A DNA stretch of 61,688 nucleotides from a virus: IMG/VR virus record IMGVR_UViG_3300044620_001837; one strand, written 5' to 3'. A program made the position numbers and the translations under genes. Shown one piece after another: positions 5,526-61,688 of this stretch. Positions within the stretch are counted from its first letter, which is position 1. Each line of letters starts with the position of its first letter. The notes beneath the pieces were generated by a model. It was not told where the DNA came from. It was given only the letters and a program-made list of their open reading frames with translations, and searched no databases.

Positions 5526-5971
5526 ATGAGGCGATTAACGCTCGCCTAGAAGCGATAAACAACCCGATTGATTGGGAGAAAATCTATTTTCAGTGGTTCG
5601 CTTGGGGATTGCCGGCCGAAGAGTGGCACGAATGGCCAGACTGGATGATTCTCAAAAAATGGTCGGGAGTGCAGCGAATCAAGGCAGAAGAAATAAACTC
5701 GCTATCGGGAACCGTGAGCCAGATTGCCGCAATGGTTCATTCCTACATGAAAGCCCAAGCCAAGGATAGCGGAAAAATAAGCGACCTCACCCCAGGGGAT
5801 TTTCTCCCATACCGACTGGAAAAAGAGAAAGAAACTTTCTTCGATCCCGAAACCGCCGAGATATTGGTAGAGGCATTAAAAGCCGGGGAAGTCCCCGTTT
5901 ATGCCCTACAAATAATCGTGGATTGTGGACTATACGACGAACTCATACAGCTAGGAGACAAGGAAAAATGA
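4767..5971 (+). CDS. Tail assembly chaperone GT-like, a -1 frameshift fusion product (shift at 5513-5519)
   Basis: After a -1 slip at A_AAA_AAC the frame is open with no stop through 5609..5971 (ORF-track protein MPAEEWHEW...). Its TGA at 5969-5971 overlaps the tape measure ATG at 5968. Confidence 0.6.
5513..5519 (+). other. Programmed -1 ribosomal frameshift slippery heptamer A_AAA_AAC
   Basis: An X_XXY_YYZ heptamer in the zero frame of 4767..5525. A 6-bp hairpin AGGCGA-ttaacgc-TCGCCT at 5529-5547 lies 9 nt downstream. Confidence 0.6.
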
Positions 5972-14900: not shown

Positions 14901-17900
14901 CGCAGAGGGGCTAGAGACGAACCTAAAAACCTATCAAACCGTACTTTCAGACACAGCTGGGATCGATAAGTTTATCGACTCATTGCAAGGTCTCCGGAAC
15001 TCGCTCGCTCAAGTTCGGGCAGAACGGGCAATCGCCGCAAATAAAGAGGATTTTGCGGCGGTAGCGCGCCTGAACGAGCGAGAACAGGAATTAATGAAGC
15101 AAGAGCAGGAAGCGATCGATAGACGCTTAGGATCGGTCGGTTCTCGCATCACCGCGGATTTACAGGTCGCCGAAGCCGCGCTCGCAGCACTAGAAGAAGA
15201 GTATCAAAAAAGCGGGGGTACGCTTAAGAATTATGGGGCAAAATCGGAGCGTCTCAAGGGAATTATCGCTGGACTTAAAGCCGAACAGCAGAACTATCTC
15301 AATGTCCTTAGAGATCAGGAAAAAGAGTACAAAAAACTTCAGTACGCTTTTAACCGAACTCTTAACGCCCAAGAAAACCGAAACTTTATTAACGCCAGAC
15401 AATCACTAAATCGACAGATCGGTAACGAATTAGCGTTCGCATTGGGACAACTCAACGAGTACGAATTTAACGTCAAGGTACGTGAAGAGTCGCTACAAAC
15501 AGCCAAAGAAAAATTTGCATCCCTTCAAACAACCGCGTCGGAAACCGGGGCGAAGCTAAGTAGTCGTATTACCGAGGCGGCTGACAAAACGCTGTCCACT
15601 TACTTCAAGGACGATCTTAAGCGATTAGGGGTCGGGAATTTTTCCGAGGCGATCGCTAGGAATCTACTTTCCCCGGAAGCGATCGAGCGGGTCATGTCCG
15701 AAAATTCGGGCGATCTCGAATCGAACGCCGCCCTTAAAAACATCCTAGAAATGGCGAAAACTTACGCCACAACTAGACAAGAGATTTTACAGTCCGAGAA
15801 AGAAATTCAGTCTATCAATCGGGAAATAATTACCGAGCGGAAACGTCGTCAGCTGTCCGAAAAACAAGCGGCTAACGAAATCCTAATCGCAGGACAACAG
15901 GAAAAGCTCTACTCCTCCACACCGACAGGCAAGCTTCGCTCGTTACAACCTGCCGAAACACGGGTATCCCTAGAGGAGCTTTACAAGCAATTAGCAGTCG
16001 AACAAGAAAGACTGGCGGCAAACGTCGATGATCCCTTGCAAATTCGCTCAAATATTGCCCGAATTAAAACGAACATCGCCCGGACACGCTTAACCTTACG
16101 GGATCAGCAAAACGATCTTGTTGAGTTCTATACGACTACGGCGATCGAGATCGAGGCAACCAATAAACAGATCGGGCTGACCGCTCGAACCGCGTCAAAT
16201 CAGGTCAAGACTTTCGCCCGTGACCAGACACTAATCGAGATCTCAAAACTTTACAAACAACTCGCTTTTGAGCAATCAAAGCTAGTCGGGACACTCAAGG
16301 GCGATCCCCTCGAAGTTAAAGCCAATATTGCTCGAATTCAACTCCAGATCGAGCAAGCAAAATTATCCCTGCGTGACCAGACAACCGACATTGAGGATTA
16401 CTACACCGGACTGCAAAGACAGGTAGTTGACCTCCGAGTATCGATCGAGGATTACCAGATTCAATCTGCCCGCGAGGTAAGAGGGTTTAAAGAAGCCTAC
16501 GGAGACATGATCCGTGGGTTACAACGATCTCTCATCGAAGCGGAAAACGAATTCCGAGCAAGTCAAAGAAGTCTCGAAAACCAACGCTTGCAGGTGTCGA
16601 TGCTTTCTGGGCGCACACCTGGCGTAAGCTCACTACAGAAGCAATTAGATGACCTCATCCTACAATATCGGGATGAAATAGCCTCGATTCAAGGCGAAGC
16701 GGATAGCCTGAGAACACGGCCGCTCGACATTCGAGATCAGTCAATCCAGTTCGCTCGACAATTACGAGACATTCAAGAGCAAATCTACGATGCCGAACGG
16801 AACCGCTTAAAACAGCTACGGGATTTCTGGATGCAACAAGTCCAGATAGTCCGTGAACTATCACAGCAACAACTAACATTTAAGTCGCTTAACGAAATAT
16901 GGGCAGGAATTTTGGAGAATTCCAAGAAACTACTCGCTAAATCGGGAAAAATTGCGGGCGGAAAAGTCCCGAATGTAGCCCTAGCAATCGGGGAAGCTCC
17001 GAACAATAGCGAAAGCTCCGAACAATACAGACAGGGAACTCCGAACAATCCCCGAACATTACAGAGAGGAGACTACATTGACTATGGCAACGGGCGGATT
17101 TACAAATACGATCCTTCCCCGAATTATGATCCCAAAACGATGCGCTATCGATCGCCGGTCAACGCCGACGAAATCCGTCACCCCTCGGTAGTTCAGCAAG
17201 TCGGCACTTCAGGGTCAGAAGAGTTTGACCGCCTGCTAATGCGATCGGGTCTCTACAAAAACTGGGAAGGTTTTACGCGGGAAGTTCTCAACCCGAACCT
17301 TCAGCCTCTCACTCCCGAAGAAAGAGCGAATTACAACGCTGGCAACGTCGGAAGATATTCTGGTGTGCTGACGGGACAACCACAAGCGAACATCCCGCTC
17401 ACGCCGCTCCCAACTTTTGACTACGATCGAGCTAGGGAACTCGATACTCAAATTCGGATTACCCGTGAGAAAACCCTACAGAATCAAAAAGAAGAAAACC
17501 TACTTAAACTCGAACGGGCAAGGCGGGAAAACCTTGATCGGATCGCAGGACTGATCCAACAAACACAGGAGGCTCGAATTCAAGCCGAGATCGGATTGAG
17601 AGACACGGGAGACACCTCGACTGACCTAATGCGCTCCTCTAAGGGCTATCTCACTTTTTCGGAAAAAATCGAACAAGCCCGACGCAATGGGAGCCGGGAG
17701 ATCGAAAAACAACGAGAGTCGATCCAGTCCCAAATTCGATCGCTCGATCAACTTACCTCGGATTTCGCTAAAAACTCGGAAGAAACACGGGCGCGGCTAT
17801 TTCAAGACACGGGTAACGATGACGCATTCAAGGCTCTTGAAGCCGAAAACAAACGAAACACCGCTATTCTTGAAGGATACAAAGCTCTCGACAATCAACT

Positions 17901-18924
17901 GAGCGTCTATGGACAGATCAGGGGTGAAGCGGCCGCCATGCGAATGATCGAGGATGAGCGGGTAGCCGCCCTCGAACGTTACAACAATCTAATTGCAGAC
18001 GGGATCGACGCGGGGAATCGGATGAACCCACTCGGAACGCTTTTCAGTGCAGGAGAAGCGCAAAAGCTCCGCATAGAAGCAGACTTCGCTCGTCGTCGCC
18101 TCGAACTCCAGCGATATGCCCAAGAAGGTGCTTTATCTCCTACCCAGTTATTTGAAATGTCGGCCGCCCTCGACAAAATGCAACAGGCTAACCTCGCTTC
18201 CGCGTTTATCGAGGCTAATCCTGCGGTGGGAGCGTTTGGGGATTTACTCCGATCCGCGTTCACTGGGGGACGGGACACCCTACAGCAAATGCTGAACGTT
18301 CTGACCAGCTTTCTACAGAAAATCGGGGAAATGGCGGCCAATCAGTTGCTCATGCAAATTTTTGGAGGAAGTGGGAGGGCATCTTCCCCAGTCCCGTCTG
18401 GCGGCGGAGGAGGTGGGCTACTAGGAGGAGCAATAAGCCTATTCACTGGTTCCCTCGGCGGATTTAGCTCGCCTATTGCCTCTACCCCATTTACGGGTGC
18501 ATCTAACTTTTCTCTAGGAACGGGATTCAGCCTCTTTAGTTCTGGCGGAAAAATCGGAGCCGATGCCCCGATAGAGAAAAATGTGATTTCTGCCTTCCGG
18601 CGTGAACGGTCTATGAGCGGAGGGAGAAACCCCCGATTGATCGTGGCCAACGAAGACGAATATGTTATCCCCGCAAACGAAGCCAAGTCTTATCTGGAAT
18701 ACAAAAATGCCCCGATCAAAAACTACGCCAGCGGGGGATTTGTCGGGGGAACTGGCTACAGCGTTACGACCTCGAACAATAATTCGTCTAATCAATCCCT
18801 CTCGATCACCAATGTGAGCAATGTTACGATAGAATCACGAAATGATATGGGATATTCCCTAACTCAGTTAAAAGAGCGTGAGAACGCCCAAAATGAGCGA
18901 ACAAAGCGGAGATTTTTTGGATGA
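5968..18924 (+). CDS. Tape measure protein, 4318 aa, with several embedded globular domains
   Basis: An uninterrupted 12.96-kb ORF. ATG 5968 follows GGAGA and overlaps the GT stop. The tape-measure core is ...AARSVLSVEEFTQQLTESGGLYDALIVAARAMGMTTAEFYRQASAGQLL (~13990-14215). It has long coiled coils, hydrophobic segments and a Gly-rich C-terminus (GGGGGLLGGAISLFTGSLGG). Confidence 0.9.
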   Translation: MTVSLGTLEIGLGLITTQYDTGIARAKGQLVSLQRMAARSGVTVKIGVKVDDRPLYQLNDHLKLKRDDLDKTSDHYRRNPIRVFVEDRQLVSLNQQLRELKRVSVDIKVPSRLVVEHRFSGYQDKVEKEIERSTSRLASEIRKSYSRGGIVGAASRLVTGVIALPFKATATVLRDVVRGYFERIGQEFSNTWAVEPSRNAARKITIAIKKIDRYLLGQNQVLETYLSELTRSGSTEKAFNAAFKRTNVNQVIERFKTLQEIATVPASKTKERLRLIQKDPELSKILKQSTEEIQKQYAGQGLSKAEIANLSMQRFLENAQPQTKVVNILNSFLKEISPFLRFVQGMKDYRTSLEAQKIYSERKAGFPKLKEGEDVVSVIGGAQFRGGQGGRKAAMSLEPLAPQKRFIPVENPETDTDLENERPAEKQFKAFISRNLTFLEGEEALNTLINAFRQISSSLDAFTPSTAAAQALANTMLAQEQGRKGNVVSYSLGGVDNIQYARTAQFMGVKDTQALAMAYPFVDITQSTPKNFTASMLTSDPLGFVKLLGIGNKTNQFMGIESTNPYGSANHHQKHLFKNIEFINKFFATINANIPDLSPGKISAIVEAGDKLYELIGSMNQIESVLSTGEFNTDLPFHRFLQGYDGQTTKSNVLDLVLEMMQDNFAIEAFKDVEGAEEFYAKLRNQFDKIASQFKEKFQASGVNLPENLARDFAGFLKYQEVAEGYNKSMTEFQTGKVSEKPSWWAGNLDPNTVKQRTGKLQTETIPWFRKEGSKFGSYQDALIEMFTLIDKVTKEYVSRGGNLSDETRQNLKFFPTETIPSEINAFLGKSFPTKNLPKEEIVRDLNLQFPEYTASTSNLTALQKIDYEAEKQRVTKLFRNRQAAILAYNKLITELTAEIVPSIDKIKAIGTGFPELGMHGSFAFLTDEFVYKTDIDPEGVNKKIATPNELETYKQLQGRLSPLLYKAVPDKAIVTERIQGKTLKEILTRIAQPFKKVQKQLADATLALDKVTKEGNEAEIERLNKEITSLEKTAQKEKTRFNKAATILYKQVGQLNSALQKMGVVHNDLAETNVFFSPQGIRAIDFGGSQVNPTAAQKIEDKKTVIDRMMGNNQYKGLMDKTAVAGAILSGFQSPLPIPEKRTVDPEKLKQTTPGQLIELGSTNPTLLQQYGEKITYPKTKPFSIPPKQEKVTTPKTEKLNPTVFLEQSLTRNTDRAITALNSIEQALNEIKKGILAKYASPLIDPWQNSTPDPWAKSNAELMRAFVDAINKVSSQKLLPPAPDDFGSSETDRGNSPLEKILEDISIKAQAGLKSALTTRLSTPDSSGEIQLLTGQENISELLNQVLIREVKEAGRILGNALKDASLDVVKFGQIVFTVLKAIERPVMAIPGVGLGKKALQVGGTAAIGAAALHALPMGLDATIVNEMRSILAGAMSAGGREMIQAVATQMTQAFSGLPFGVGQQLTEAVMNLVTELTNGTISVLAQGGAVAGSALMAGEGVKKLLGAATSSVPKLIDKEEQQKIEGKTQKLLKAAKDKAGSLITTEITPYFDEKAFPVSSPIPANIKAINPKYYTVKQLRGLARDQGIDVPASGAGARKEEIWKSLTEKFNPDQLTRLLLTTKASDRTKLGKKELSGFQVETTEIPADFTKRIGIGIKNIGQEINTTKDIQSLERLYFQLEKVKKGIASLRANPEFNTTSINKSLSGFLQSVDNLQTQILAKGGLESGKNLNEGLAKGLKDNDAEKIVRKNARNIIDGLNDELGNRSPSWKGEKAGRYLIQGVGIGIEKEESRLTTKIKELTTKVIKELQKGLSNPTLKGLLATLAIVSSGMPANAQQFIQTESFKGVTMNPATTGVEVVKQVDVDKKAFQDRKAIAYSSGPMFDRFFLQDKNQQVNMIADVVQREQVLQLSRNRAAAEERGFIGINKQGKLKFGYGGAKSNKLSDYDTFVGGLHVLYNDEVPKPANYKGGYHSSLKQQLAYQVPRPRVFFGKTKEGNLTVMEGQKDMTPQQLEKYARSMGFTAVMLPDHGNMARLTVPGQSMSRILPQSLGGTGKSTPYQLRFFERPQIESKQAKLSESSSVVTPPVEKEKNLSASNVFDTVVDRELSISPQSTTNKILPIKHISRKVESADKALTNDLLEFIGNYGLTVASLLSLLGITGKVASKLKKASQRQKPLEAIPVIENIPQPKQSNNTNLSRIIDVEFSVVDEKIDFTYVQATKKRISAMGRKIIEDIKSSNPTIDTSGTVRAFEETANKLSEDFKQRINKNRTTLIATSLNVSRPQQVLPSLPKPDIKSISPDFIKSIQNRKLSAFSNIVLPKPPSITPVNIPTSTASINKLGETAKDYIDVIYKVIDEGEKVEKKIKQLAKNYTETPSPQEASNIPAQAGLGGSGGGKKPPRPPRIAASASPEPEPKKEKFDVSKEAEKALKDIQKAREAINKLDKEEEKLKNLKIELGIEPKTTREKILGDWNKKRDNIFNALDSIEKAGVSSGFTDGIVTGLKTAIAQADGFINFLSVGGKALRTLDKELDAATGGMINLRKASLAVIGGFALFKTAEFLLEPLFFAIQDLPFRVQQAVTDSLLAFTELQQIRINLDIAGVNNVDTAIDGLRNRADELGISFRESAKQYAQFQIVTTGSPLQAQGDDIFEGFQSALAVRQTNPQQQTETFRAINQMAARSVLSVEEFTQQLTESGGLYDALIVAARAMGMTTAEFYRQASAGQLLSQDVIPRLAAEYERLSAGGIGASSKTLQAEMNRYQNNIEQLSMSTGEKLGVVAYPALQLLNTLLKGLNDNLGLVATVSASAVIATIGLLGKSVLQFSAATRLGQGLIASYNASLFAMGVTAGQTTTKMQMLSATAKVAGGVLKATIGAMIVPAATIVALQTFYDIFENGDANLKNSLQTLKESRKVLEDLGKIEPENENKNLWNKFFPDMNLSGTEKFFNVLTVGTVYTFKRNNAVRDQQENLKNIREGAEGLETNLKTYQTVLSDTAGIDKFIDSLQGLRNSLAQVRAERAIAANKEDFAAVARLNEREQELMKQEQEAIDRRLGSVGSRITADLQVAEAALAALEEEYQKSGGTLKNYGAKSERLKGIIAGLKAEQQNYLNVLRDQEKEYKKLQYAFNRTLNAQENRNFINARQSLNRQIGNELAFALGQLNEYEFNVKVREESLQTAKEKFASLQTTASETGAKLSSRITEAADKTLSTYFKDDLKRLGVGNFSEAIARNLLSPEAIERVMSENSGDLESNAALKNILEMAKTYATTRQEILQSEKEIQSINREIITERKRRQLSEKQAANEILIAGQQEKLYSSTPTGKLRSLQPAETRVSLEELYKQLAVEQERLAANVDDPLQIRSNIARIKTNIARTRLTLRDQQNDLVEFYTTTAIEIEATNKQIGLTARTASNQVKTFARDQTLIEISKLYKQLAFEQSKLVGTLKGDPLEVKANIARIQLQIEQAKLSLRDQTTDIEDYYTGLQRQVVDLRVSIEDYQIQSAREVRGFKEAYGDMIRGLQRSLIEAENEFRASQRSLENQRLQVSMLSGRTPGVSSLQKQLDDLILQYRDEIASIQGEADSLRTRPLDIRDQSIQFARQLRDIQEQIYDAERNRLKQLRDFWMQQVQIVRELSQQQLTFKSLNEIWAGILENSKKLLAKSGKIAGGKVPNVALAIGEAPNNSESSEQYRQGTPNNPRTLQRGDYIDYGNGRIYKYDPSPNYDPKTMRYRSPVNADEIRHPSVVQQVGTSGSEEFDRLLMRSGLYKNWEGFTREVLNPNLQPLTPEERANYNAGNVGRYSGVLTGQPQANIPLTPLPTFDYDRARELDTQIRITREKTLQNQKEENLLKLERARRENLDRIAGLIQQTQEARIQAEIGLRDTGDTSTDLMRSSKGYLTFSEKIEQARRNGSREIEKQRESIQSQIRSLDQLTSDFAKNSEETRARLFQDTGNDDAFKALEAENKRNTAILEGYKALDNQLSVYGQIRGEAAAMRMIEDERVAALERYNNLIADGIDAGNRMNPLGTLFSAGEAQKLRIEADFARRRLELQRYAQEGALSPTQLFEMSAALDKMQQANLASAFIEANPAVGAFGDLLRSAFTGGRDTLQQMLNVLTSFLQKIGEMAANQLLMQIFGGSGRASSPVPSGGGGGGLLGGAISLFTGSLGGFSSPIASTPFTGASNFSLGTGFSLFSSGGKIGADAPIEKNVISAFRRERSMSGGRNPRLIVANEDEYVIPANEAKSYLEYKNAPIKNYASGGFVGGTGYSVTTSNNNSSNQSLSITNVSNVTIESRNDMGYSLTQLKERENAQNERTKRRFFG

Positions 18925-23162: not shown

Positions 23163-24167
23163 ATGTCAGGCGAAATTGTTAAAGCTTCATCGAGTCCGCT
23201 AGAGTTAAAGACGATTGACGACATGAAAAAACTAGCGTCTTTAATGGCAGAGTCCAAGCTGTTTACTGATACGCAATCAGTGGCACAATGTTTTGTAAAA
23301 GTTCTTGCCGGGAAAGAGTTGGGGATTCCCGCTTTTGCCTCGATGACTGGAATTCATATCATTAAAGGCAAGCCTGTTATTAGTGCCAACCTAATGGCTA
23401 CCCTAATTAAGGGGTCAGGTAAGTATCGATACAAAAAATTATTGCACGACGCTGACAAGTGCGAGATTGAATTTTTTGAGTTAATACAGGGCAAGTGGGA
23501 ATCGCTCGGCGTGACCTCGTTCACGATGCTGGACGCAAAAACCGCAGGACTCGGTAGTAATCCAAACTGGCAGAAGTTTCCTAAGAATATGCTTTTCGCT
23601 CGGTGTATCTCTAATGGGTTCCGCGAGTTCTGTCCCGATCTCGCCCTCGGTGCGCCTGTTTATTCCTTTGACGAACTAGGAGCAGAAGTAAACGAAAACG
23701 GGGACGCAATCAATGTGGAAGTAGTCAAGCCTCGAACCGAACCCGATATTTCCGAATGGGTTCCCCGAATGATGAACTACGCAGTTAATGAATTGGGAAT
23801 GAGTTCAGATACTGCGAGAGATATTTTCAAAAAGCACAATGCTTTCAAGGACGAAAAAGCTAAGGGGAAATGCTGGAAAGATATTCACGTCACAGCATTA
23901 GTAAACGCAGGGGTTGACGCTTTTGTGGCGGAATCAATTTACAAAGAAAACAGCAAAAATAAGGACGCTCTAAAAATAGCTGTTCTTGATAGAATTACCG
24001 CGTTAAATAAAAGCGGTAATCCCGACACGGGAGGAAAAGTTACGTTTACCGCAGAACAAGTAGTCGGCAACGAAATCAATCCAGAAATCAGCGCAGAAGT
24101 AGACGCAATGATCGAGGACAGATTACTAAAAACTGTCCCCGTCTCTGAAGATTCGGACGATTTCTAA
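23163..24167 (+). CDS. recT: RecT/Redbeta-family single-strand annealing protein
   Basis: ...VKVLAGKELGIPAFASMTGIHIIKGKPVISANLMATLIKGSG... and ...NWQKFPKNMLFARCISNGFREFCPD... match the conserved RecT-family blocks. Confidence 0.7.
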   Translation: MSGEIVKASSSPLELKTIDDMKKLASLMAESKLFTDTQSVAQCFVKVLAGKELGIPAFASMTGIHIIKGKPVISANLMATLIKGSGKYRYKKLLHDADKCEIEFFELIQGKWESLGVTSFTMLDAKTAGLGSNPNWQKFPKNMLFARCISNGFREFCPDLALGAPVYSFDELGAEVNENGDAINVEVVKPRTEPDISEWVPRMMNYAVNELGMSSDTARDIFKKHNAFKDEKAKGKCWKDIHVTALVNAGVDAFVAESIYKENSKNKDALKIAVLDRITALNKSGNPDTGGKVTFTAEQVVGNEINPEISAEVDAMIEDRLLKTVPVSEDSDDF

Positions 24168-26544: not shown

Positions 26545-29370
26545 ATGTATCTTATGAATACTATGATAACACACAATCGCGTCAAGTTGCAACCCTGCCC
26601 CCACTGCGGGAATCGAAACGAAACAAATTACTGTTACGGATTCACATCGGATGAGGGAAATCTGCTCTCTGTCTGCAAGCGAGGAGCGGAACCCGGCGAG
26701 GGGTGGGAGAAGTCGGGAAAAACCGACAGCGCGGGCGATTCTATCTACTATTTGAAGCGTGACAAGAAGTTTTCAGAATTTAAGAAAGAGAAAACCACCT
26801 ACTACGCCTATCCCAAGCTTGCCAACGGCACGATCGTCCAAGTGTACCGGAAGGATTACCAAGAAGACGGGCGATGGAAAAAAGAAATTCGTCAGCAACA
26901 CTCGACAAACAACGGGAAAACGTGGAATTGGAACCTGCAAGGCATTAACTACAGCGAGATTCCCCTTTACCATGCCGAACGACTGAAGAAAGCGATCGGG
27001 GTGGGAACTCCGATTCTAGTAGTCGAGGGAGAGAACAAGGTAGAGAAGTTAGAAGCGATGGGATTCGTCGCCACCTGTAGCCTCGGCGGGGCGGGAAAAT
27101 GGCAACCATCACACTCGGAATTTTTGAAGGGAGCGAAACTAATTCTCTGCCCAGACCGGGATAATCCTGGCGTGAAGCACGTTCAGCGCATCTATCAAGA
27201 TTTTCCCGACGCTCGCTTCCTGTACGCCTACCCCGATTCCCCATTGTGGGATCATCTTCCCGAATCCGGAGGATGCGATTTAATCGATTGGATCGAGGAA
27301 ACAAAAGCCACAAAAGAGCAAGTCTTGGCGGGTGTAGTCGATACCCCGAAAGAATTACGGGTTAGGGAGCCTAAAAGCAAACCCACAGAGCAACTGCTAT
27401 CCCTAGAGGATATCGTCCCCGCCATTGACGCAGCGATCGAACAACACCTGACCCTTACTAAGTGGGAAGCGAAGATACATGAGTGGGCAAAACTCACGGG
27501 CAAGACACCGAGCGATATTCGCGAACTGAAAAAGGCACGGGAACGGGAACTAGAAGAGTCAGAACGGATCGACACGGGAATAACTGACTTTCTCCAGAAT
27601 AATCACTATCGGCAAGACAAGCTCGATATATTCAAGATCGTTCCCCGCCCCCTCGCCGAAGCTCTAGATTCACGGGCTAAGACGATCAACCAGCCATCGA
27701 TCCGACTACTGCATTCGCTCTGGCCGGTCATGGGCGCAATCCTCGGTTCTCGATTTGCTGTCAATCTCCGCACAGCGAGAAACTCCAGGAATTGTTGGAA
27801 AGAATCCCCAATCTTTTACATGGCGGATGTAGATTATCCGAGCGGCGGAAAAACCACGACACAGAAGCAGATTTACCGCGTTTTGAAGGAACGGGATAAA
27901 GTCGAGCAAATGCGAGTGGATCAAGAAGAGGTACACCTTGAAGACTTAAAGTCCTCATGGGCTGAAATGACCCGCGAGGAACGCAAGGAGAACATCACAA
28001 ATCCTAGCGTTAACCCGCGCCTTTACGAGCGAGAACACTGCAAGGCTAAACGATGGGTCTACGATCATGGAACCCTAGATGCAATTCTAAAATCGATTTC
28101 CTTGCAGTCCCCGTGGCAAGGTTCGGTATGGCTGGCCGACGAACTAACCGGGCTATTTGACGGGATGAACCAGTACAAGAGCGGCGGAAAGGGAAGTGAT
28201 CGCCAGAAATTACTAGAGGCTTGGAACGATCCGCTACAATTCACTTTTGACCGCGTAAACCGCGAGAGTCGGTACAGCATGAACGGGCAAACCCTTAATA
28301 TATTGGGGGGGATACAAGTCGGAAAACTTCGGAAGTACCTCGATCTTTCCGATGATGTGGATGGGCTAGTTTCCCGGTTTCATTTTTTGATCAACGAACC
28401 GCTCGATCCCGTCCCCGGTCGCCCGCCAATGGACGAGAACTCGGTCGAGGACTTGATACTAGAAGCGTTTAATCGGGTAAGCGGTATCGAGCTAGAAATC
28501 GGGGAAAGCGGTGTCGAACGTTACGATCTTTGGTTTACCGAGAAAGGCGAAACTTTTGCATGGGACGTGAATCACCGCTACAACAATCTCGTTAAGCAAA
28601 ATCGAGCCAAAAACCCCGCTTTTACGGCGTACATCGGGAAACAGATGAAAGAGTTTTTGCGGTTTGCTATTACCATCCACTTGCTGAATTGGATTTACGA
28701 TCCCGAACACACCGATCTTTACAAAATCCCCGTCCAGACCGCAGCGAAAGCGGCCGCCGTGACCGATTTTTATATCAACCAATTTCTCGCTATTCAGGGC
28801 ATCACCGGGGGCGACGATCAGAATCCCATTCAGGGTATTCTGCATGAAATCTGGGAAATCGTGAGAACTTTTGGCAAAATTACGACCCGCGAGGTTCACC
28901 AAAAATTTCAGAGCCGGAAGATTGACGGGCAAAAGATGAACTCTGGACTCGCTCTTGAACTACTCAGTCAATTGCAGAAAGCCGGACACGGACGGCTTGA
29001 GGGAAAAACTCTACACTTCCAAGAGCCACAAGCGATCGCCGTAGAAGAAATAGTATTCGAGGAAGAAGAGTTTACTGTTCTAGCTTCGGAGCAAAAGACC
29101 GAACCGCCCCGCCCCGAAGAATACTCGGCTGATGGTGTACACCTTGACAGTTTGCCAAATTTTGAGCGGCAGGAAGTTCTGATCCGAACCGCAGAACCGA
29201 TAGACACGGGAGAGCGAACTATTCCGACCCGAACGATCGCCCGAATCGTGGGCGTGACCATCGACACGATCGGCAATTGGCTGATTGAAGCAGAAGCTCG
29301 AATAGGTGAGGCTGTGGCTCGGTTTAGTTTGCCGTTCGGAAGTTGTTATGTGAACGACGTGGGGACGTGA
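26545..29370 (+). CDS. Bifunctional Toprim primase / P-loop helicase (P4-alpha / DUF3987-like)
   Basis: Zn-binding CPHCGN...C. Toprim motifs ILVVEGENKVEKL and ILCPDRDNPG. P-loop YPSGGKTTTQ. 941 aa. Confidence 0.75.
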   Translation: MYLMNTMITHNRVKLQPCPHCGNRNETNYCYGFTSDEGNLLSVCKRGAEPGEGWEKSGKTDSAGDSIYYLKRDKKFSEFKKEKTTYYAYPKLANGTIVQVYRKDYQEDGRWKKEIRQQHSTNNGKTWNWNLQGINYSEIPLYHAERLKKAIGVGTPILVVEGENKVEKLEAMGFVATCSLGGAGKWQPSHSEFLKGAKLILCPDRDNPGVKHVQRIYQDFPDARFLYAYPDSPLWDHLPESGGCDLIDWIEETKATKEQVLAGVVDTPKELRVREPKSKPTEQLLSLEDIVPAIDAAIEQHLTLTKWEAKIHEWAKLTGKTPSDIRELKKARERELEESERIDTGITDFLQNNHYRQDKLDIFKIVPRPLAEALDSRAKTINQPSIRLLHSLWPVMGAILGSRFAVNLRTARNSRNCWKESPIFYMADVDYPSGGKTTTQKQIYRVLKERDKVEQMRVDQEEVHLEDLKSSWAEMTREERKENITNPSVNPRLYEREHCKAKRWVYDHGTLDAILKSISLQSPWQGSVWLADELTGLFDGMNQYKSGGKGSDRQKLLEAWNDPLQFTFDRVNRESRYSMNGQTLNILGGIQVGKLRKYLDLSDDVDGLVSRFHFLINEPLDPVPGRPPMDENSVEDLILEAFNRVSGIELEIGESGVERYDLWFTEKGETFAWDVNHRYNNLVKQNRAKNPAFTAYIGKQMKEFLRFAITIHLLNWIYDPEHTDLYKIPVQTAAKAAAVTDFYINQFLAIQGITGGDDQNPIQGILHEIWEIVRTFGKITTREVHQKFQSRKIDGQKMNSGLALELLSQLQKAGHGRLEGKTLHFQEPQAIAVEEIVFEEEEFTVLASEQKTEPPRPEEYSADGVHLDSLPNFERQEVLIRTAEPIDTGERTIPTRTIARIVGVTIDTIGNWLIEAEARIGEAVARFSLPFGSCYVNDVGT

Positions 29371-30548: not shown

Positions 30549-30695
30549 TTCGGACAACGTAAGCGGTGAATAGCCCGTCGAGCCGTTAGATGTCACAGAC
30601 CTCCGAATACTTCCCTAGTTCGGATTTCCTCTAAGCCTTATTGGTAGCTATCGCTAAAGGGCGGGGGTTCAAACCCAAATTTTCGATGAATTAAA

Positions 30696-31547
30696 ATGCA
30701 AAACCTAGACAGTAAAACATTTTTTGCCTTTGGCGGCGGCGTTCAGTCAACCGCTATAGCCCTTCTATTAATTCATGAACCCCACAAACTACTCGATCTT
30801 GGATTAACTCTCCCGAAAACAATTATTTTTGCCGACACAGGAGCGGAACCGAAAGCGATTTACGATCACGTTAACCAAATATTTGAAATGCTGTCAAGAG
30901 CCGAGTATGACACGGTAGTAGTTCAGCGCATTGAAAAAAATGGATCAATCATTCCAATTCACGAGCAATGGTGGGGACTCGCTTCTATTCCATGGTTTAC
31001 AAGGTCGTTAGATGGTCAAGTCGGAATGCTAAAAAGGCAGTGTACCGAAGAATTTAAAATTAAGCCGATCCAAAAAGAAATCCGCGCCAGACTGGGATAC
31101 AAAAAAGGTCAAAGAATCCCACCCCTGACCGCTAAACTTTGGCTCGGAATTTCTGTTGATGAACAGAGAAGAGCGAAAATTAATCAAGATAAGTGGCTCA
31201 ACAACAAACACCCGCTTATTTATCTAGGGTGGAATCGCAACGATTGCGCCGTTTACAATTACCTTCATCTAAATCGGAACGTATCAAAATCATCATGTTT
31301 CTTCTGTCCGTTTAAGCATCGACAAGAATGGATGCGAATGAGGCAAGAAGAACCCGATGAATTTGCTCGGGCTGTAGAAGTTGACAAAAAAATTCGGCAT
31401 TTAGTAACTATTGGCAAATGCCGACAAGATGTTTTTGTTCATTCGTCAGGCTTGCCACTAGAAGATGCCGTACTAGATCAATTATCTCTTCCGCTTGGAA
31501 TCGATTACGGCTTCGGAAAAGAATGTGCAGGGCATTGTGGAGTATAA
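30696..31547 (+). CDS. PAPS reductase / PP-loop ATP-pyrophosphatase family protein
   Basis: The N-terminal PP-loop variant is FAFGGGVQSTAIALLL. Cys motifs SSCFFCPF and ECAGHCGV are present. 283 aa. Confidence 0.7.
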   Translation: MQNLDSKTFFAFGGGVQSTAIALLLIHEPHKLLDLGLTLPKTIIFADTGAEPKAIYDHVNQIFEMLSRAEYDTVVVQRIEKNGSIIPIHEQWWGLASIPWFTRSLDGQVGMLKRQCTEEFKIKPIQKEIRARLGYKKGQRIPPLTAKLWLGISVDEQRRAKINQDKWLNNKHPLIYLGWNRNDCAVYNYLHLNRNVSKSSCFFCPFKHRQEWMRMRQEEPDEFARAVEVDKKIRHLVTIGKCRQDVFVHSSGLPLEDAVLDQLSLPLGIDYGFGKECAGHCGV

Positions 31548-31552
31548 GCAAA

Positions 31553-34402
31553 ATGAATTTAACTTTATTCCAAGAACAACCTTTTAGGATTCCGACCCCG
31601 ACAATCCAACTTCGCCCTGATCAAAAAGCTCTTAAAAAAGAGATTTATGATCAGCTTAGATCGGGATTCAAGCGCGTGCTAGTAGTTGCACCGTGCGGCT
31701 ACGGTAAGTGTCTAGCAAAAGATACGCCAATTATTATGTATGACGGTAGCGTGAAGCTGTCACAAAATATTGCAGTAGGGGATATTCTGATGGGGGATGA
31801 CAGCAAGCCCCGTCATGTCGATTCAATCTGTAGAGGAAGAGAAACTATGGTAAAGGTAATCCCGAACAAGGGAGAGCCGTTTACCTGCAATCGTAGTCAC
31901 ATTCTTTCGCTAGTTTATAATGGGAGAAGCTACCCGAAATCAGGATGGATTAACGGAAATATTTACGATTTTTCTATTGATCAGTATCTTTCTCTCCCGA
32001 AACATATTCAAATCTCGATGTTGCTCTATCGGGTTCCTGTAGAATTCGATAGCAAGCCTGTCACGATAGACCCCTACTTTCTTGGAATATGGCTAGGAGA
32101 TGGCAATCACAGGAACACGGGGGTCTGCACGTCCAATCCTGTATTGATCGACTATATCAAGAAATACGCTGATCGTTTAGGGATGAAAGTCTATTCTGAT
32201 GCAAGAAATGACAATCCGAATTCTCAGCTTCATAGGATCACAACAGGAGAGAAGGGGCCAGGAAAAAATTATTTGCTAAACATGATAAAAGACTTATCTC
32301 TCATCGAAAACAAGCATATCCCTCGAAACTATCTAATCAACTCAAGAGAAGTCAGGTTAGAACTTCTCGCTGGACTTCTTGACACGGACGGACACTGGCA
32401 GATAAATGGAGGCTACGAAATAGCGCAAAGAAGAAAAGAACTTGCGGATCAAATTGTTTTTCTCTCTCGCTCTTTAGGCTTTTTTGCAAGTGTAGGAACC
32501 AAAGAAGTAAAAGGAGAAACTTACTATCGTGTCAGAATTAGCGGCAACACAGAGACTATCCCGATCAAGACCGAATACAAGAAAACCCCGAAAGAATACA
32601 TAGAAAAACAGAAATGCAATGTTTTAAGAACGAATTTCAAGCTAGAGTTTTTGAAGGAAGATGATTACTATGGGTTTACAATCGACGGAAATCGCCGTTT
32701 TTTACTAGGAGATTTTACCGTAACCCACAATACTGTCCTATTCTGTCAGATGATTTACGATGCAGCGATTAAAAAGCACCGCCGCACCCTGATCGTCGTG
32801 CCGTTTATATGCTTGATTGACCAGACTCTAGACGCTCTTGAAAAATTCGGATTAACCGCAGGAGTTATAGCGGGAAACTATAGAGAAGATCGTCTGCAAA
32901 AAGTACAAATTGCCACCACACAAACACTAGCAAGACGAGATATTTCTTGGTTTAATCCTGAAGTAATATTTCTTGATGAGTGCCATCTTTCCGCCTATTC
33001 ACTTTGGTTTCGAGATAATTTTAATAATCTCAAAGACGGGAAACAAACAACCTCGATAGTAGATATTAGTTCCGAACTAGCTATTTTAGGCATCGCTATC
33101 GAGAGAGAAAGTCTAGAATTCGGGTATCGAGTCACTTTCGAGGAAGTAAAGCAAAAGTACAAATCTCTCACATTACTCCATCACCCCGATCACGGGGGAA
33201 GTAAAAAGAAGATGCAAGAATTGAATTCTGCATGGGAGATTTTAAGGAAACAAGAACATTTATTTTCTGGGAAAGAACTATCAATGGACAGCCAGATCGT
33301 CATCGGACTGACGGCGACCCCGTGGCGATTGTCAAAACGGGAGGAGTTAGGAGATATTTTCGAGACGCAAGTAACCGGCCCGACTCCGAAAGAGATGATC
33401 GAGCGGAAAGCTTTATTGGGATGCGTGTACTTTGCCACCAAAAACCAAATTGACACCAAAGGGGTTAAAACTACGGGTGGCGATTTTGATGCGGCGGAAC
33501 TCGAAACTCGATGCTTAGAGGCGGTACAATCAATTGTTTCCGAGTACAAGCGACTCGGACAAAACCGTCAATTCGTGTGTTTTGCCGCAGGGAAAGTTCA
33601 CGCGGACTCGCTGGCTAAAGAATTTACCGATCAAGGAATTCCCGTCGCCGTTATTACCGCAGAAACTCCACAGGAGGAACGAAAAGAGATTTTTAAAAAT
33701 GTAGCGCAATTAAAAATGCGGGGGATTATCAATATCAATACTTGTGGAATCGGATTTAATCTGCCTGAAATTAGCTGTATTATCCATTCCCGTCCGACAA
33801 AATCTATGACTTTGTATATCCAGATGACGGGGCGAGGACAACGGCTCTGCCCTCAACTTAACAAAACCGATTGCCTTGTTTTAGATCAGGCAGGAAATAC
33901 CAAGCGTCACGGGTTTATCGAAGACGTGACCTATCCCGATCTTCGGAAGGCATTAAACACAGAAAAAAGAGAAGCTCCCGTCAAGGAGTGCGAAAATTGC
34001 GGGTGCATGGTTCACGCCTCCGCTCGTGTTTGTCCAGAGTGCGGTTTCGAGTTTCCTTCCGCTCGAACAGAAAAACGGATTGCCAGCGAAAAGCTTCAGT
34101 TAATACTTCCAGACGAGGACAAAACCCTCTACTACGCTTATCGACAGGCAAGACGAGAGGCTTACGAGAAGGGCAAAAAACCAGAATGGGCGCGCTACGA
34201 AATTGTTAGAATTTATAAGCTATCGCAATGGTGGCCTAAAGCTTTCTGGAAACTTTACGCAGTTTTCGGGACAAACTATACTAAAGATGACGTAAAAAGC
34301 TATTGGGACTACTTGAATCGTTGTTGCGGTAATCCCGATTGGATAGAAAAATGTATGAAAGAGGAATTTGGAGATGACTACAGCGAGAATATTGGGAAAT
34401 AA
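31553..34402 (+). CDS. SF2 (DEAD/DEAH-like) helicase with an intein in the P-loop, an inserted J-domain and a C-terminal Zn-ribbon
   Basis: The Walker A motif APCGYGK/T is split by the intein. DECH lies at 32975-32986 and TATP at 33311-33322. The helicase C-domain has QMTGRGQR. Zn-ribbon is CENCGC...CPECG. I chose ATG 31553 (MNLTLFQEQ), 6 nt after the previous stop. Confidence 0.85.
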   Translation: MNLTLFQEQPFRIPTPTIQLRPDQKALKKEIYDQLRSGFKRVLVVAPCGYGKCLAKDTPIIMYDGSVKLSQNIAVGDILMGDDSKPRHVDSICRGRETMVKVIPNKGEPFTCNRSHILSLVYNGRSYPKSGWINGNIYDFSIDQYLSLPKHIQISMLLYRVPVEFDSKPVTIDPYFLGIWLGDGNHRNTGVCTSNPVLIDYIKKYADRLGMKVYSDARNDNPNSQLHRITTGEKGPGKNYLLNMIKDLSLIENKHIPRNYLINSREVRLELLAGLLDTDGHWQINGGYEIAQRRKELADQIVFLSRSLGFFASVGTKEVKGETYYRVRISGNTETIPIKTEYKKTPKEYIEKQKCNVLRTNFKLEFLKEDDYYGFTIDGNRRFLLGDFTVTHNTVLFCQMIYDAAIKKHRRTLIVVPFICLIDQTLDALEKFGLTAGVIAGNYREDRLQKVQIATTQTLARRDISWFNPEVIFLDECHLSAYSLWFRDNFNNLKDGKQTTSIVDISSELAILGIAIERESLEFGYRVTFEEVKQKYKSLTLLHHPDHGGSKKKMQELNSAWEILRKQEHLFSGKELSMDSQIVIGLTATPWRLSKREELGDIFETQVTGPTPKEMIERKALLGCVYFATKNQIDTKGVKTTGGDFDAAELETRCLEAVQSIVSEYKRLGQNRQFVCFAAGKVHADSLAKEFTDQGIPVAVITAETPQEERKEIFKNVAQLKMRGIININTCGIGFNLPEISCIIHSRPTKSMTLYIQMTGRGQRLCPQLNKTDCLVLDQAGNTKRHGFIEDVTYPDLRKALNTEKREAPVKECENCGCMVHASARVCPECGFEFPSARTEKRIASEKLQLILPDEDKTLYYAYRQARREAYEKGKKPEWARYEIVRIYKLSQWWPKAFWKLYAVFGTNYTKDDVKSYWDYLNRCCGNPDWIEKCMKEEFGDDYSENIGK
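31709..32731 (+). mobile_element. Intein (341 aa) with a LAGLIDADG homing-endonuclease domain
   Basis: It starts with Cys (GYGK/CLAKDTPIIMYDG) and ends ...TVTHN, followed by Thr. LAGLIDADG blocks are FLGIWLGDGN and LLAGLLDTDGHW. Removing it restores GYGKT. Confidence 0.85.
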
Positions 34403-40042: not shown

Positions 40043-40795
40043 ATGAATAGCCTACTCGCCACTCAAAACACACTCCTTAAAACCCACCCGCTCGACTCCT
40101 CTAGCCCGAATCTACCCCCAGATTTTAAATCTGTTCCGATTGCCAAAGGACAAAAAGTAATTTATAAATGGCTAAAGCGGAAAGGAAATCACTACCTAAT
40201 AGAAGTCCATCCCCCGATAGATGGACGCTATAACTGGTACGCGTTTCAAGGGCATTTTGATGGAACGGGAATAGAGTCTCCTGTCGTCAGAAAAGACCAG
40301 TGCGAAGCGATTTTTGAGAGAGCGATAACCGATCATCAATTCCAGTCCCTTGATCGCTGTCTCAAACGATTCGATATAACCACCATCCCCCGTGTTCGTC
40401 ATTTTCTTGCTCAAATTGCCCACGAAAGCGGCGGTTTAAGATGGATGGTTGAACTGGCATCAGGAGCCGCTTACGAGGGGCGGCAGGATTTGGGGAATGT
40501 TTTTCCAGGCGATGGACCGCGGTTTAAAGGCGTGGACGCTTTGCAAATGACTGGACGTGCTAACTATCAAGCTTTTGCCAACTTTATCGGCGATCAAAGA
40601 GTTATGGAAGGCTGGCAATATGTCTCCAAAAATTATCTATTTTTACCTAGTGGATTTTGGTGGCACAACAACAATATGAATGCTTTAATTGATCGGGGCG
40701 CAACTGTTCGGCAAGTTACCCGACGAGTGAACGGGGGATACAACGGGCTTGCAGACAGAGAACGGTACTACCAGAGAGCTTTACGATTTATCTAA
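40043..40795 (+). CDS. Endolysin, glycoside hydrolase family 19 (chitinase-like)
   Basis: FLAQIAHESGGLRWMVE...YEGRQDLGNVFPGDGPRFKGVDALQMTGRANYQAF matches the GH19 phage-lysin signature. Confidence 0.8.
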   Translation: MNSLLATQNTLLKTHPLDSSSPNLPPDFKSVPIAKGQKVIYKWLKRKGNHYLIEVHPPIDGRYNWYAFQGHFDGTGIESPVVRKDQCEAIFERAITDHQFQSLDRCLKRFDITTIPRVRHFLAQIAHESGGLRWMVELASGAAYEGRQDLGNVFPGDGPRFKGVDALQMTGRANYQAFANFIGDQRVMEGWQYVSKNYLFLPSGFWWHNNNMNALIDRGATVRQVTRRVNGGYNGLADRERYYQRALRFI

Positions 40796-54116: not shown

Positions 54117-54187
54117 TGCAGGTGAGTGAAACGGCTCACGCAAGGCTCATAACCTTGAAACAGCGGGTTCGACTCCCGTGCCTGCGT
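54117..54187 (+). tRNA. tRNA-like gene with anticodon CAT (Met, or Ile2 if lysidinylated)
   Basis: Hand-folded cloverleaf with segment lengths 7/2/4/6/4/1/5/7/5/5/5/7/5/7/1. The anticodon loop is CTCATAA, the T-loop TTCGACT and the D-loop contains GG. The acceptor has two G:T pairs and position 8 is G. TATGAT at 54105-54110 is placed as a -10. Confidence 0.6.
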
Positions 54188-61548: not shown

Positions 61549-61688
61549 ATGCTTAACAGAGAAAAACGTACAATAGAAATACAAATTGAATACAAAAAAC
61601 AAAGACTTTCTGTAGTTGAATTACAAATTAGAAAACACCGAAATCCTGGTAAATACAAAAAAGAAAGAGACTTGATTTTGTCTGAAAT
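61549..61688 (+). CDS. Junction-spanning small hypothetical protein, 5' part (58 aa in total, ending at 100)
   Basis: ATG 61549 is preceded by AAGGAG (61535-61540) and P8. Translation is MLNREKRTIEIQIEYKKQRLSVVELQIRKHRNPGKYKKERDLILSEI..., and the frame continues across the 63-bp overlap. Confidence 0.55.
   Translation, partial: MLNREKRTIEIQIEYKKQRLSVVELQIRKHRNPGKYKKERDLILSE
61626..61688. repeat. Terminal direct repeat, right copy (identical to 1..63)
   Basis: Exact 63-nt identity with the window start. Confidence 0.9.

What the first reader, a model, noticed from the sequence alone, without database searches (positions are those of the whole stretch)
33100..33260. J-domain (HPD) inserted into the core of an SF2 helicase
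About 108 residues lie between helicase motif II (DECH, 32975-32986) and motif III (TATP, 33311-33322), where ~25-30 are usual. The insert reads ELAILGIAIERESLEFGYRVTFEEVKQKYKSLTLLHHPDHGGSKKKMQELNSAWEILRK. This follows the J-domain layout: helix II, the invariant HPD (33182-33190), then helix III (compare the generic form LGv....s.eeIKkaYrkLalkyHPDk.g.....f..in.AyevL). Free-standing phage J-proteins are rare but known, and polyomavirus large T antigen combines a J-domain with an SF3 helicase. A J-domain spliced into an SF2 helicase core suggests direct recruitment of host DnaK/Hsp70 to the phage replication or recombination machinery.
Basis: partly seen in the sequence, partly recalled or inferred. 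Interest (0 to 1): 0.75.

Follow-up and report, generated by a model that had tools for sequence, protein, structure and literature searches.

The report
J-domain spliced into phage helicase
An uncultured phage's RadD-like DNA helicase carries a real, conserved J-domain (the module that switches on Hsp70/DnaK chaperones) inserted inside its ATPase core, a layout apparently not described before and a likely way to bring the host chaperone to phage DNA transactions.

Summary
The helicase gene (31553-34402, +) has 108 residues between motif II (DECH) and motif III (TATP). Relatives without the insert have 21-34.

The insert is a J-domain by four lines of evidence:
- Pfam DnaJ scores 31.9-32.7 bits against a 27.8 cut-off, and 19 of 20 homologous inserts also match.
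- The best solved-structure sequence hit is the murine polyomavirus T-antigen J-domain (E 2.3e-6).
- AlphaFold models the insert as an ordered helical module (pLDDT about 88-96).
- All 21 top Foldseek PDB hits for the insert model are J-domains.

The residues HPD, Tyr25/Lys26 and a Phe47 equivalent are kept. HPD is invariant across lineages down to about 36% identity, and the insert evolves under purifying selection (dN/dS 0.05-0.14).

The host protein is a RadD-like SF2 helicase in the replication/recombination module of a complete ~61.6 kb phage genome that shows no Hsp70 signature motifs.

There are three caveats. A large sister subclade deleted HPD yet conserves the rest of the insert. One close relative has PPD instead of HPD. 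DnaK recruitment and HPD exposure remain untested.

No cultured phage, public annotation or paper found here reports this architecture.

The parts
31553..34402 (+). RadD-like SF2 helicase gene (949-aa precursor; 608-aa spliced protein)
   Evidence: ORF and translation. Pfam ResIII/Helicase_C. PHROG 16 DNA helicase, 5e-75. Best PDB relative is E. coli RadD 6JDE, E 1e-55, and RadD is also top by Foldseek.
31709..32731 (+). Intein (Hint + LAGLIDADG homing endonuclease) splitting Walker A GYGK|T
   Evidence: Pfam Hom_end_hint 1.7e-19, Hom_end, LAGLIDADG_3. The boundaries Cys1...His-Asn/Thr+1 and intein-free homologues reading GYGKT.
32975..32986 (+). Helicase motif II (DECH)
   Evidence: Direct reading. 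D134, E135 and H137 are invariant in alignment A1.
32987..33310 (+). 108-aa segment between motifs II and III that contains the insertion
   Evidence: 106 aa in the aligned interval here versus 21-34 aa in insert-free relatives.
33041..33274 (+). J-domain module (helix I 33056-33085; helix II 33137-33181; helix III 33203-33250; short helix IV-like 33254-33265)
   Evidence: Pfam DnaJ 31.9-32.7 bits. AF2 secondary structure with pLDDT about 88-96. Foldseek top 21 PDB hits are all J-domains. Coordinates mapped.
33182..33190 (+). HPD tripeptide at the helix II-III turn
   Evidence: Direct reading. Invariant in 20 HPD-bearing homologues down to about 28% insert identity. Aligns to His33-Pro34-Asp35 of E. 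coli DnaJ.
33311..33322 (+). Helicase motif III (TATP)
   Evidence: Direct reading. G244, T246 and P249 are invariant.
33821..33844 (+). Helicase motif VI (QMTGRGQR)
   Evidence: Direct reading. Q416, G419, R420 and R423 are invariant.
33989..34042 (+). CxxC...CxxC zinc ribbon, as in RadD-type helicases
   Evidence: C472 and C475 are nearly invariant and C486 and C489 invariant. Weak Pfam zinc-ribbon hits. Coordinates.
23163..24167 (+). RecT-like single-strand annealing protein (context: recombination module)
   Evidence: PHROG 561, 9.5e-26.
26545..29370 (+). DUF3987 primase/helicase, the likely replicative enzyme (context)
   Evidence: Pfam DUF3987 2.7e-25. PHROG DNA primase/helicase families. 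The same gene type lies upstream of the J-helicase in L001 and L002.

Best explanation
The insert is a bona fide J-domain of the short-loop 'HPDxGGS' type, acquired once by a clade of phage RadD-like SF2 helicases. It is spliced into a permissive surface loop of the first RecA-like lobe, between motifs II and III.

In this phage it most likely acts as a built-in co-chaperone. The HPD loop and the basic face of helix II would dock on ATP-bound host DnaK and trigger ATP hydrolysis. DnaK would then clamp onto a polypeptide next to the helicase, either a partner or an obstacle on phage DNA, or the helicase assembly itself. This would couple chaperone remodelling to replication or recombination without needing host DnaJ.

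Shown: the domain's identity, its predicted fold, conservation of the catalytic residues, purifying selection, and the phage replication/recombination context.
Inferred: binding and stimulation of DnaK, the identity of the client, and the exposure of HPD.
For: - Profile: Pfam DnaJ is above the curated cut-off for the insert, and 19/20 homologous inserts match.
- PDB sequence search: only J-domains are significant. The best is the murine polyomavirus T-antigen J-domain 1FAF, E 2.3e-6, 19/38 identical.
- Fold: the AF2 full-length model has pLDDT 87.7 overall and about 88-96 in the insert, with helices at 161-170, 188-202 and 210-225 flanking HPD 203-205. For the isolated insert model, the top 21 Foldseek PDB hits are all J-domains (1FAF, Tim14, T. 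thermophilus DnaJ and others).
- Functional residues: BLASTP against E. coli DnaJ aligns Lys22, Tyr25, Lys26, HPD33-35 and Met at the Phe47 position. Established DnaJ mutagenesis shows these positions are essential.
- Conservation: HPD, GG, N-x-A-W and F are invariant or nearly so across lineages sharing only 28-72% insert identity.
- Selection: insert dN/dS is 0.05-0.14, similar to the helicase core.
- Permissive site: unrelated low-complexity inserts sit in the same loop in other relatives.
- Geometry: both ends of a J-domain lie at the pole opposite HPD (established structure), so insertion through its base points HPD outward.
- No phage Hsp70: the genome is complete (63-nt terminal overlap) and its six-frame translation has no Hsp70 signature motifs, so any partner must be host DnaK.
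- Context: RecT-like protein, DUF3987 primase-helicase, tail genes and terminase. Homologues sit in equivalent phage modules.
- Precedents (established knowledge): lambda replication needs DnaK/DnaJ to remodel O-P-DnaB, SV40/polyoma large T couples a J-domain to its helicase, and phage RB43 Rki is a working J-protein (PMC3486835).
Against: - No biochemical data exist.
- In the full-length protein the Pfam score only equals the cut-off (27.8 bits), and only 4 of about 30 family members carry a precomputed DnaJ annotation.
- An abundant sister subclade (53 of 63 IMG/VR loci that carry the insert) has a 4-residue deletion that removes HPD. It still keeps the rest of the insert under strong purifying selection (dN/dS 0.05 versus 0.09 for the core).
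- The closest intein-free relative, P0002/L085, reads PPD instead of HPD. DnaK stimulation is therefore dispensable in some lineages, and the domain must also do something else.
- Solvent exposure of HPD in the model could not be computed because no coordinates were available.
- Helix IV is very short.
- The host is unidentified.
Confidence: 0.6

Rival explanations
1. The insert is J-derived but works mainly as a structural or partner-binding 'J-like' module, comparable to Pam16/Tim16 or other degenerate J-like domains. It might serve as a helical protrusion that contacts DNA, SSB, RecT or the primase-helicase. The HPD in this phage would then be an ancestral leftover that is not needed.
For: - The HPD-less subclade keeps the whole module with dN/dS 0.05, lower than the core's 0.09.
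- It dominates sampled viral contigs, 53 of 63.
- P0002/L085, 86% identical to the window protein, has PPD.
- Conserved flanks outside the canonical J-domain (LKDG before it, H-x-x-LF after it, with G4 and F79 invariant) suggest tight integration with the helicase.
Against: - HPD is strictly invariant in every other lineage, across six 50%-identity clusters and down to about 28% insert identity. That is hard to explain without selection on the motif itself.
- The accessory functional positions (Tyr/Phe/His25, Lys/Arg26, Met at position 47) are also kept.
- The two HPD losses are shallow and nested inside HPD-bearing lineages.
Confidence: 0.25
2. The J-domain is a host-takeover device rather than a replication aid. 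It would titrate or redirect DnaK to alter the heat-shock response, as RB43 Rki does by stabilising sigma-32, or to blunt DnaJ/DnaK-dependent antiphage sensing. The helicase would serve only as a carrier.
For: - Free-standing phage J-proteins with this kind of role exist (PMC3486835).
- J-proteins of the same HPDxGGS subtype are common as small stand-alone proteins in phage and metagenome data.
- DnaJ-dependent phage sensing has been reported (cited in PMC12619734).
Against: - A titration role does not require insertion into a conserved enzyme core.
- The fusion has been stably inherited with the helicase across deep divergence, and the module co-evolves at the same rate as the core. Both argue that its function is tied to the helicase.
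Confidence: 0.1
3. The resemblance is a chance HPD-containing helical segment, with no J-domain ancestry.
For: J-domains are short. The full-length Pfam score sits exactly at threshold, and Foldseek E-values for the isolated model are weak (7.9e-3 at best).
Against: - Independent profile hits for 19/20 diverged homologues.
- 50% identity over 38 residues to a solved J-domain.
- All top structural matches are J-domains, with probability 0.92-1.00 for most.
- An insert profile recovers 17,143 J-type proteins.
Confidence: 0.02

Closest known systems
Polyomavirus large T antigen (J-domain + SF3 helicase)
   Same: A viral DNA helicase polypeptide that carries its own J-domain with HPDxGG and a short helix II-III loop. 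The murine polyomavirus T-antigen J-domain (PDB 1FAF) is the best sequence match (E 2.3e-6, 19/38 identical) and the best structural match to this insert. The J-domain is expected to recruit host Hsp70 to the replication protein.
   Different: Large T is an SF3 (AAA+) hexameric initiator with the J-domain at its N-terminus, on a linker. Here the helicase is SF2 and RadD-like, the J-domain is internal between motifs II and III of RecA lobe 1, and the host is a bacterium. The helicases are unrelated, so the fusion is convergent. The HPDxGGS subtype is also widespread in small bacterial and phage J-proteins, so the similarity to T antigen does not imply direct descent.
E. coli RadD (YejH) SF2 DNA repair helicase (PDB 6JDE/7R7J)
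   Same: Closest solved relative of the helicase body by sequence profile (E 1e-55) and by fold. It shares two RecA lobes, a zinc ribbon and a helical C-terminal domain.
   Different: RadD has no J-domain and only a short motif II-III connector. Identity is about 20-22%. The phage protein also carries an intein.
Phage RB43 Rki and other free-standing phage J-proteins
   Same: Phage-encoded J-domains that act on host DnaK (PMC3486835). Similar HPDxGGS J-domains occur in T4-like Aeromonas phages, a Desulfovibrio phage and jumbo phages.
   Different: Those are small stand-alone proteins or N-terminal J-domains. None is embedded in an enzyme core, and none of the 50,697 deposited phage genomes encodes the J-helicase.
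HMO-2011-type phage DNA polymerase with a partial DnaJ central domain
   Same: A phage replication enzyme with a chaperone-derived module inserted between its catalytic domains (PMC9038755).
   Different: That insert is the cysteine-rich CXXCXGXG zinc-finger domain of DnaJ, not the J-domain. It has no HPD and is not expected to stimulate DnaK ATPase.
Lambda O-P-DnaB remodelling by host DnaJ/DnaK/GrpE
   Same: The functional paradigm (established knowledge): Hsp70 action at a phage helicase complex is needed to activate replication.
   Different: Lambda uses the host's separate DnaJ and the host DnaB helicase. Here the J-function would be built into a phage accessory helicase.

Membership tests
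J-domain (DnaJ/Hsp40 J-domain, Pfam PF00226) | Profile match at or above the curated gathering score | tested here: met
   31.9 bits (108-aa segment) and 32.7 bits (83-aa module) against a 27.8 cut-off. The full-length protein scores exactly 27.8. 19/20 homologous inserts match at E <= 0.01.
J-domain (DnaJ/Hsp40 J-domain, Pfam PF00226) | Invariant His-Pro-Asp in the loop between helices II and III | tested here: met
   HPD at 33182-33190 lies between predicted helices 188-202 and 210-225. It aligns to H33-P34-D35 of E. coli DnaJ.
J-domain (DnaJ/Hsp40 J-domain, Pfam PF00226) | Four-helix fold with an antiparallel helix II/III hairpin | tested here: met
   AF2 predicts helices I, II and III plus a short helix IV. 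The top 21 Foldseek PDB matches are J-domains (TM 0.42-0.60). This is prediction only, and helix IV is minimal.
J-domain (DnaJ/Hsp40 J-domain, Pfam PF00226) | Helix II basic/aromatic residues (DnaJ Tyr25, Lys26) and helix III hydrophobic residue (Phe47) needed for DnaK interaction | tested here: met
   Y-K aligns with Tyr25-Lys26 and Met aligns with Phe47. Across homologues these positions are aromatic (Y/F/H) and K/R.
J-domain (DnaJ/Hsp40 J-domain, Pfam PF00226) | Stimulates Hsp70/DnaK ATPase in an HPD-dependent way | not testable with these tools
   Needs biochemistry or genetic complementation.
RadD-like SF2 helicase | SF2 motifs I, II, III and VI in two RecA-like lobes | tested here: met
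   GYGK|T (restored by intein splicing), DECH, TAT and QMTGRGQR. The invariant columns are listed. Pfam ResIII and Helicase_C hits.
RadD-like SF2 helicase | Closest solved homologue is RadD, with a CxxC...CxxC zinc ribbon after lobe 2 | tested here: met
   6JDE at E 1e-55. RadD entries fill Foldseek ranks 1-8. The four Cys are conserved.
RadD-like SF2 helicase | SSB-stimulated ATPase / recombination accessory activity | not testable with these tools
   Only the context (a RecT-like gene 7 kb upstream) is suggestive.
Polyomavirus large-T-type J-helicase | N-terminal J-domain followed by origin-binding domain and SF3 helicase | tested here: not met
   The helicase is SF2 and the J-domain is internal. 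It is a functional analogue, not a family member.
Class 1 intein with LAGLIDADG homing endonuclease | Hint domain with N-terminal Cys, C-terminal His-Asn and a nucleophilic +1 residue, inserted in a conserved host motif | tested here: met
   CLAKD...VTHN|T within GYGK|T. Pfam Hom_end_hint 1.7e-19, Hom_end 8.4e-11, LAGLIDADG_3 5.7e-9.

The most novel reading that the evidence does not exclude
The J-domain sits between motif II (ATP hydrolysis) and motif III (which couples hydrolysis to DNA translocation). Its presentation to DnaK could therefore be gated by the helicase's nucleotide or DNA-bound state. That would make a chaperone-coupled DNA motor that fires host Hsp70 only where the helicase is engaged or stalled, for example to strip SSB, RecA or defence proteins, or to disassemble the phage primase-helicase from DNA. 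It would be a bacterial-virus counterpart of large T antigen that arose independently on an SF2 scaffold.
Probability: 0.12. Interest if true: 0.85.

Novelty: new variant of a known kind. Interest (0 to 1): 0.62.

Why it matters
J-domains are the adaptors that decide where Hsp70 acts. DnaK and DnaJ were discovered through their requirement for lambda replication, and polyomaviruses hard-wire a J-domain onto their replicative helicase.

Finding the same solution built independently into the ATPase core of an unrelated (SF2, RadD-like) helicase suggests that Hsp70 remodelling of helicase complexes is a recurrent need of DNA viruses. The fusion occurs in a clade of environmental phages and has been conserved over deep divergence.

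It also provides:
- a compact natural example of a domain-inserted J-protein for studying local Hsp70 targeting;
- a natural experiment (HPD-bearing versus HPD-deleted sister clades) for separating chaperone-dependent from chaperone-independent roles;
- a warning that standard annotation misses the domain. All public names are just 'superfamily II DNA or RNA helicase'.

Tried and rejected
- A word-indexed homologue search with the 85-aa insert alone returned nothing. This is a tool limitation, because close homologues plainly exist. I replaced it with the exhaustive profile search.
- Model coordinates are not exposed to scripts, so burial or exposure of HPD could not be computed.
- Host identification failed. 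The helicase's nearest genome hits are three freshwater MAG contigs binned as Flavobacteriaceae/Crocinitomicaceae, probably mis-binned phage. The terminase search gave only about 40% identical prophages of many phyla. A 52-nt match to Microcystis phage MaMV-DC has no exact counterpart in GTDB genomes.
- Rfam found only the tRNA.
- The best phage-database hit to the insert (Desulfovibrio/Nitratidesulfovibrio phage) is a free-standing N-terminal J-protein, not a helicase.
- BFVD structural neighbours of the whole model are ordinary phage SF2 helicases. The closest two (494 and 470 aa) are too short to hold the insert.
- The idea that the J-domain serves intein splicing was rejected, because intein-free homologues keep the insert.
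- Independent double acquisition (P0044 groups with J-less sequences in the NJ tree) was judged unlikely. Its insert flanks resemble those of the P0030 group, but this is not resolved.
Full report
**Observation**

The + strand ORF that contains the finding is best read from the ATG at 31553 to the stop at 34402. The longer ORF starting at 31418 overlaps the upstream gene, and homologues align from the 31553 methionine.

DECH is at 32975-32986, HPD at 33182-33190 and TATP at 33311-33322. Exactly 108 codons lie between motif II and motif III.

In a 50-sequence alignment of the family, the equivalent interval is 21-34 residues in members without an insert. It is 96-114 residues in members with it.

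**Is the insert a J-domain?**

- **Profile.** Pfam DnaJ (PF00226) matches the insert at 31.9 bits (E 1.4e-7) and the trimmed 83-aa module at 32.7 bits, against a curated cut-off of 27.8. In the full-length protein the score is exactly 27.8. Nineteen of twenty homologous inserts, scanned independently, also hit DnaJ.
- **Solved structures by sequence.** A phmmer search of all PDB sequences returns J-domain proteins almost exclusively. The best hit is the murine polyomavirus T-antigen J-domain (1FAF, E 2.3e-6), with 19 of 38 aligned residues identical, including HPDxGGS and MQELNSxW.
- **Functional residues.** BLASTP against the E. coli DnaJ J-domain places the window's Lys, Tyr-Lys, HPD and Met on DnaJ Arg22, Tyr25-Lys26, His33-Pro34-Asp35 and Phe47. 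Established mutagenesis identifies these as the positions needed for DnaK interaction.
- **Predicted fold, full length.** AlphaFold2 on the spliced 608-aa protein with the family alignment gives mean pLDDT 87.7 and pTM 0.81. The insert scores about 88-96 and forms helices 161-170 (I), 188-202 (II) and 210-225 (III), plus a short helix 227-230. HPD sits at the II-III turn.
- **Predicted fold, insert alone.** The insert modelled alone has pLDDT 78. Its 21 best PDB structural neighbours are all J-domains: 1FAF, Tim14, T. thermophilus DnaJ, Tid1, CbpA, auxilin and others. TM is 0.42-0.60, but E-values are modest.
- **Reverse search.** A profile of the inserts, searched exhaustively against 1.84 billion representatives, recovers 17,143 J-type proteins. 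The sampled non-helicase hits are ordinary J-proteins.

The chance explanation is excluded.

**What carries it**

The protein body is an SF2 helicase whose closest solved relative is E. coli RadD. The profile E-value is 1e-55, and RadD entries occupy Foldseek ranks 1-8. It has a conserved CxxC...CxxC zinc ribbon and a helical C-terminal domain.

It is independent of the J-insert, because intein-free homologues keep the insert.

**Genome context**

The window is a complete assembly: its first 63 nt equal its last 63 nt. It is a tailed-phage genome of about 61.6 kb with these genes:

| Feature | Coordinates |
|---|---|
| RecT-like annealing protein | 23163-24167 |
| DUF3987 primase-helicase | 26545-29370 |
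| PAPS-reductase-like gene | 30696-31547 |
| Endolysin | 40043-40795 |
| Large terminase | 54187-55866, minus strand |
| Tape-measure protein (4333 aa) | 5923-18924 |

Tail genes are also present. The DUF3987 protein is the likelier replicative helicase, and the J-bearing RadD-like enzyme is probably accessory.

No Hsp70 signature motif occurs in any reading frame. Any Hsp70 partner must therefore be the host's.

Two diverged homologues (39% and 48% identical) sit in equivalent phage modules, each with a DUF3987 gene a few kb upstream.

**Distribution and evolution**

- **Depth.** The insert is present in homologues down to about 36% overall identity. At 50% clustering, about six representative clusters are helicase-embedded: P0037, P0021, P0002, P0035, P0124 and P0127.
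- **Single origin.** In a neighbour-joining tree built without the insert columns, insert-bearing sequences form essentially one clade. This is consistent with a single ancient insertion. One exception is P0044, whose placement is unresolved.
- **Conserved positions.** Within HPD-bearing members, His, Pro, Asp, a Trp in helix III, a Phe after helix III and a Gly before helix I are invariant.
- **Selection.** Codon analysis gives insert dN/dS of 0.05-0.14, similar to the core at 0.08-0.11.
- **Permissive site.** The same loop holds unrelated low-complexity inserts in some cyanobacterial relatives, so it tolerates insertions.
- **Geometry.** Both termini of a J-domain lie at the pole opposite the HPD loop (established structure). 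Insertion through the base should therefore project HPD away from the RecA lobe. This is inference, not measurement.

**The complication**

Of 63 loci that carry the insert (viral-contig and other fetched loci), 53 belong to a shallow subclade. In that subclade a 4-residue deletion converts LIHHPDHGGTKE to LIH----AESKE and removes HPD. Its sister (P0005/L087) retains HPD.

The rest of the module in this subclade is under strong purifying selection: dN/dS is 0.05 versus 0.09 for the core, over 603 pairs.

The closest intein-free relative of the window protein (P0002/L085, 86% identical) reads PPD.

J-activity is therefore dispensable in some lineages, and the module must also have an HPD-independent role, structural or in partner binding. 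The window's own protein and its nearest relatives (97% and 81% identical) keep a canonical HPD.

**Mechanism**

The best-supported reading is a functional, built-in J-domain that recruits and activates host DnaK next to the helicase. DnaK would then clamp onto an adjacent partner or obstacle during replication or recombination.

This parallels lambda's need for DnaJ/DnaK at O-P-DnaB and the J-domain of polyomavirus large T (established knowledge). Phage RB43 Rki shows that phage J-domains can work with DnaK (PMC3486835).

I put this at about 0.6. A mainly structural, J-like role gets about 0.25, host-takeover titration about 0.1, and chance about 0.02. These readings are not fully exclusive.

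**Comparison with the known, and novelty**

- **Deposited phages.** None of 50,697 phage genomes encodes the fusion. Their J-domains are free-standing.
- **Cellular genomes.** GTDB species-representative genomes contain it only on three freshwater MAG contigs, all HPD-less and probably phage.
- **Viral structure library.** BFVD neighbours of the whole model are ordinary phage SF2 helicases, the closest of them too short to hold the insert.
- **Public annotation.** All public names for the protein and its relatives are 'superfamily II DNA or RNA helicase' or 'hypothetical protein'.
- **Literature.** Five searches found no description of this architecture. The nearest precedent is the DnaJ zinc-finger (not J-domain) insert in HMO-2011-type phage DNA polymerases.

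The similarity to T-antigen J-domains reflects membership in the widespread short-loop HPDxGGS subtype. That subtype is common in small metagenomic J-proteins (145 of the 192 HPD sites among the best 146 profile hits are followed by x-GG). It does not indicate direct descent.

I classify the finding as a new variant of a known kind: a class-C J-protein, functionally analogous to large T, but with the J-domain inserted inside an SF2 RecA lobe.

**Limits**

- There is no biochemistry.
- The host is unknown.
- The neighbour-joining tree is rough.
- The dN/dS values use simple Nei-Gojobori estimates, with synonymous sites near saturation for the deeper pairs.

Noticed in passing
window 31709-32731: A 341-aa intein (Hint + LAGLIDADG homing endonuclease; Cys1 ... 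His-Asn/Thr+1) interrupts the Walker A motif GYGK|T of the same helicase. It is present in the closest relatives (L083, L084, L086, L135) but absent from L085/P0002. A more distant helicase (P0099, 39% identical) also carries homing-endonuclease/Hint domains.
   Followed up: partly
window 1-63 and 61626-61688: The first 63 nt are identical to the last 63 nt. The window is therefore a circularly closed assembly of a complete phage genome of about 61,625 bp. The exact helicase protein is on six public contigs, the longest being 61,688 bp.
   Followed up: partly
window 5923-18924: A single 4333-aa ORF, about 21% of the genome, with a tape-measure (TMP_3) domain at residues 2612-2785. A distant relative (L001) has a 4300-aa counterpart. 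This is an unusually long tape-measure-type protein for a 62 kb phage.
   Followed up: partly
L087-L134 and L003-L005 (relatives); window equivalent 33176-33199: A large sister subclade has a 4-residue deletion that removes HPD (LIHHPDHGGTKE becomes LIH----AESKE). It still keeps the J-like module under strong purifying selection (dN/dS 0.05). L085/P0002 has PPD. These are natural loss-of-HPD variants.
   Followed up: yes
window 30596-30647: A 52-nt intergenic stretch upstream of the PAPS-reductase-like gene is 94% identical to a non-annotated region of Microcystis phage MaMV-DC. It is the only near-identical match to any deposited phage. A 29-nt core has no exact match in GTDB genomes. Its meaning is unknown.
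   Followed up: partly
P0046, P0048, P0055 (Okeania relatives), same loop as window 32987-33310: Unrelated low-complexity inserts of 58-92 aa occupy the same motif II-III loop in cyanobacterial homologues. The site appears to be a hotspot that tolerates insertions.
   Followed up: no
window 54117-54187: A tRNA-Met (CAT) gene on the + strand ends at the same base where the minus-strand large-terminase ORF (54187-55866) ends. It is the only Rfam or ARAGORN hit in the genome.
   Followed up: no
P0121, P0122, P0128 and others (one search hits): The insert profile also retrieved odd multi-J proteins. P0121 (679 aa) has six tandem J-domains, and several 1,500-3,900-aa proteins have two or three J-domains. 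Their origin was not examined.
   Followed up: no
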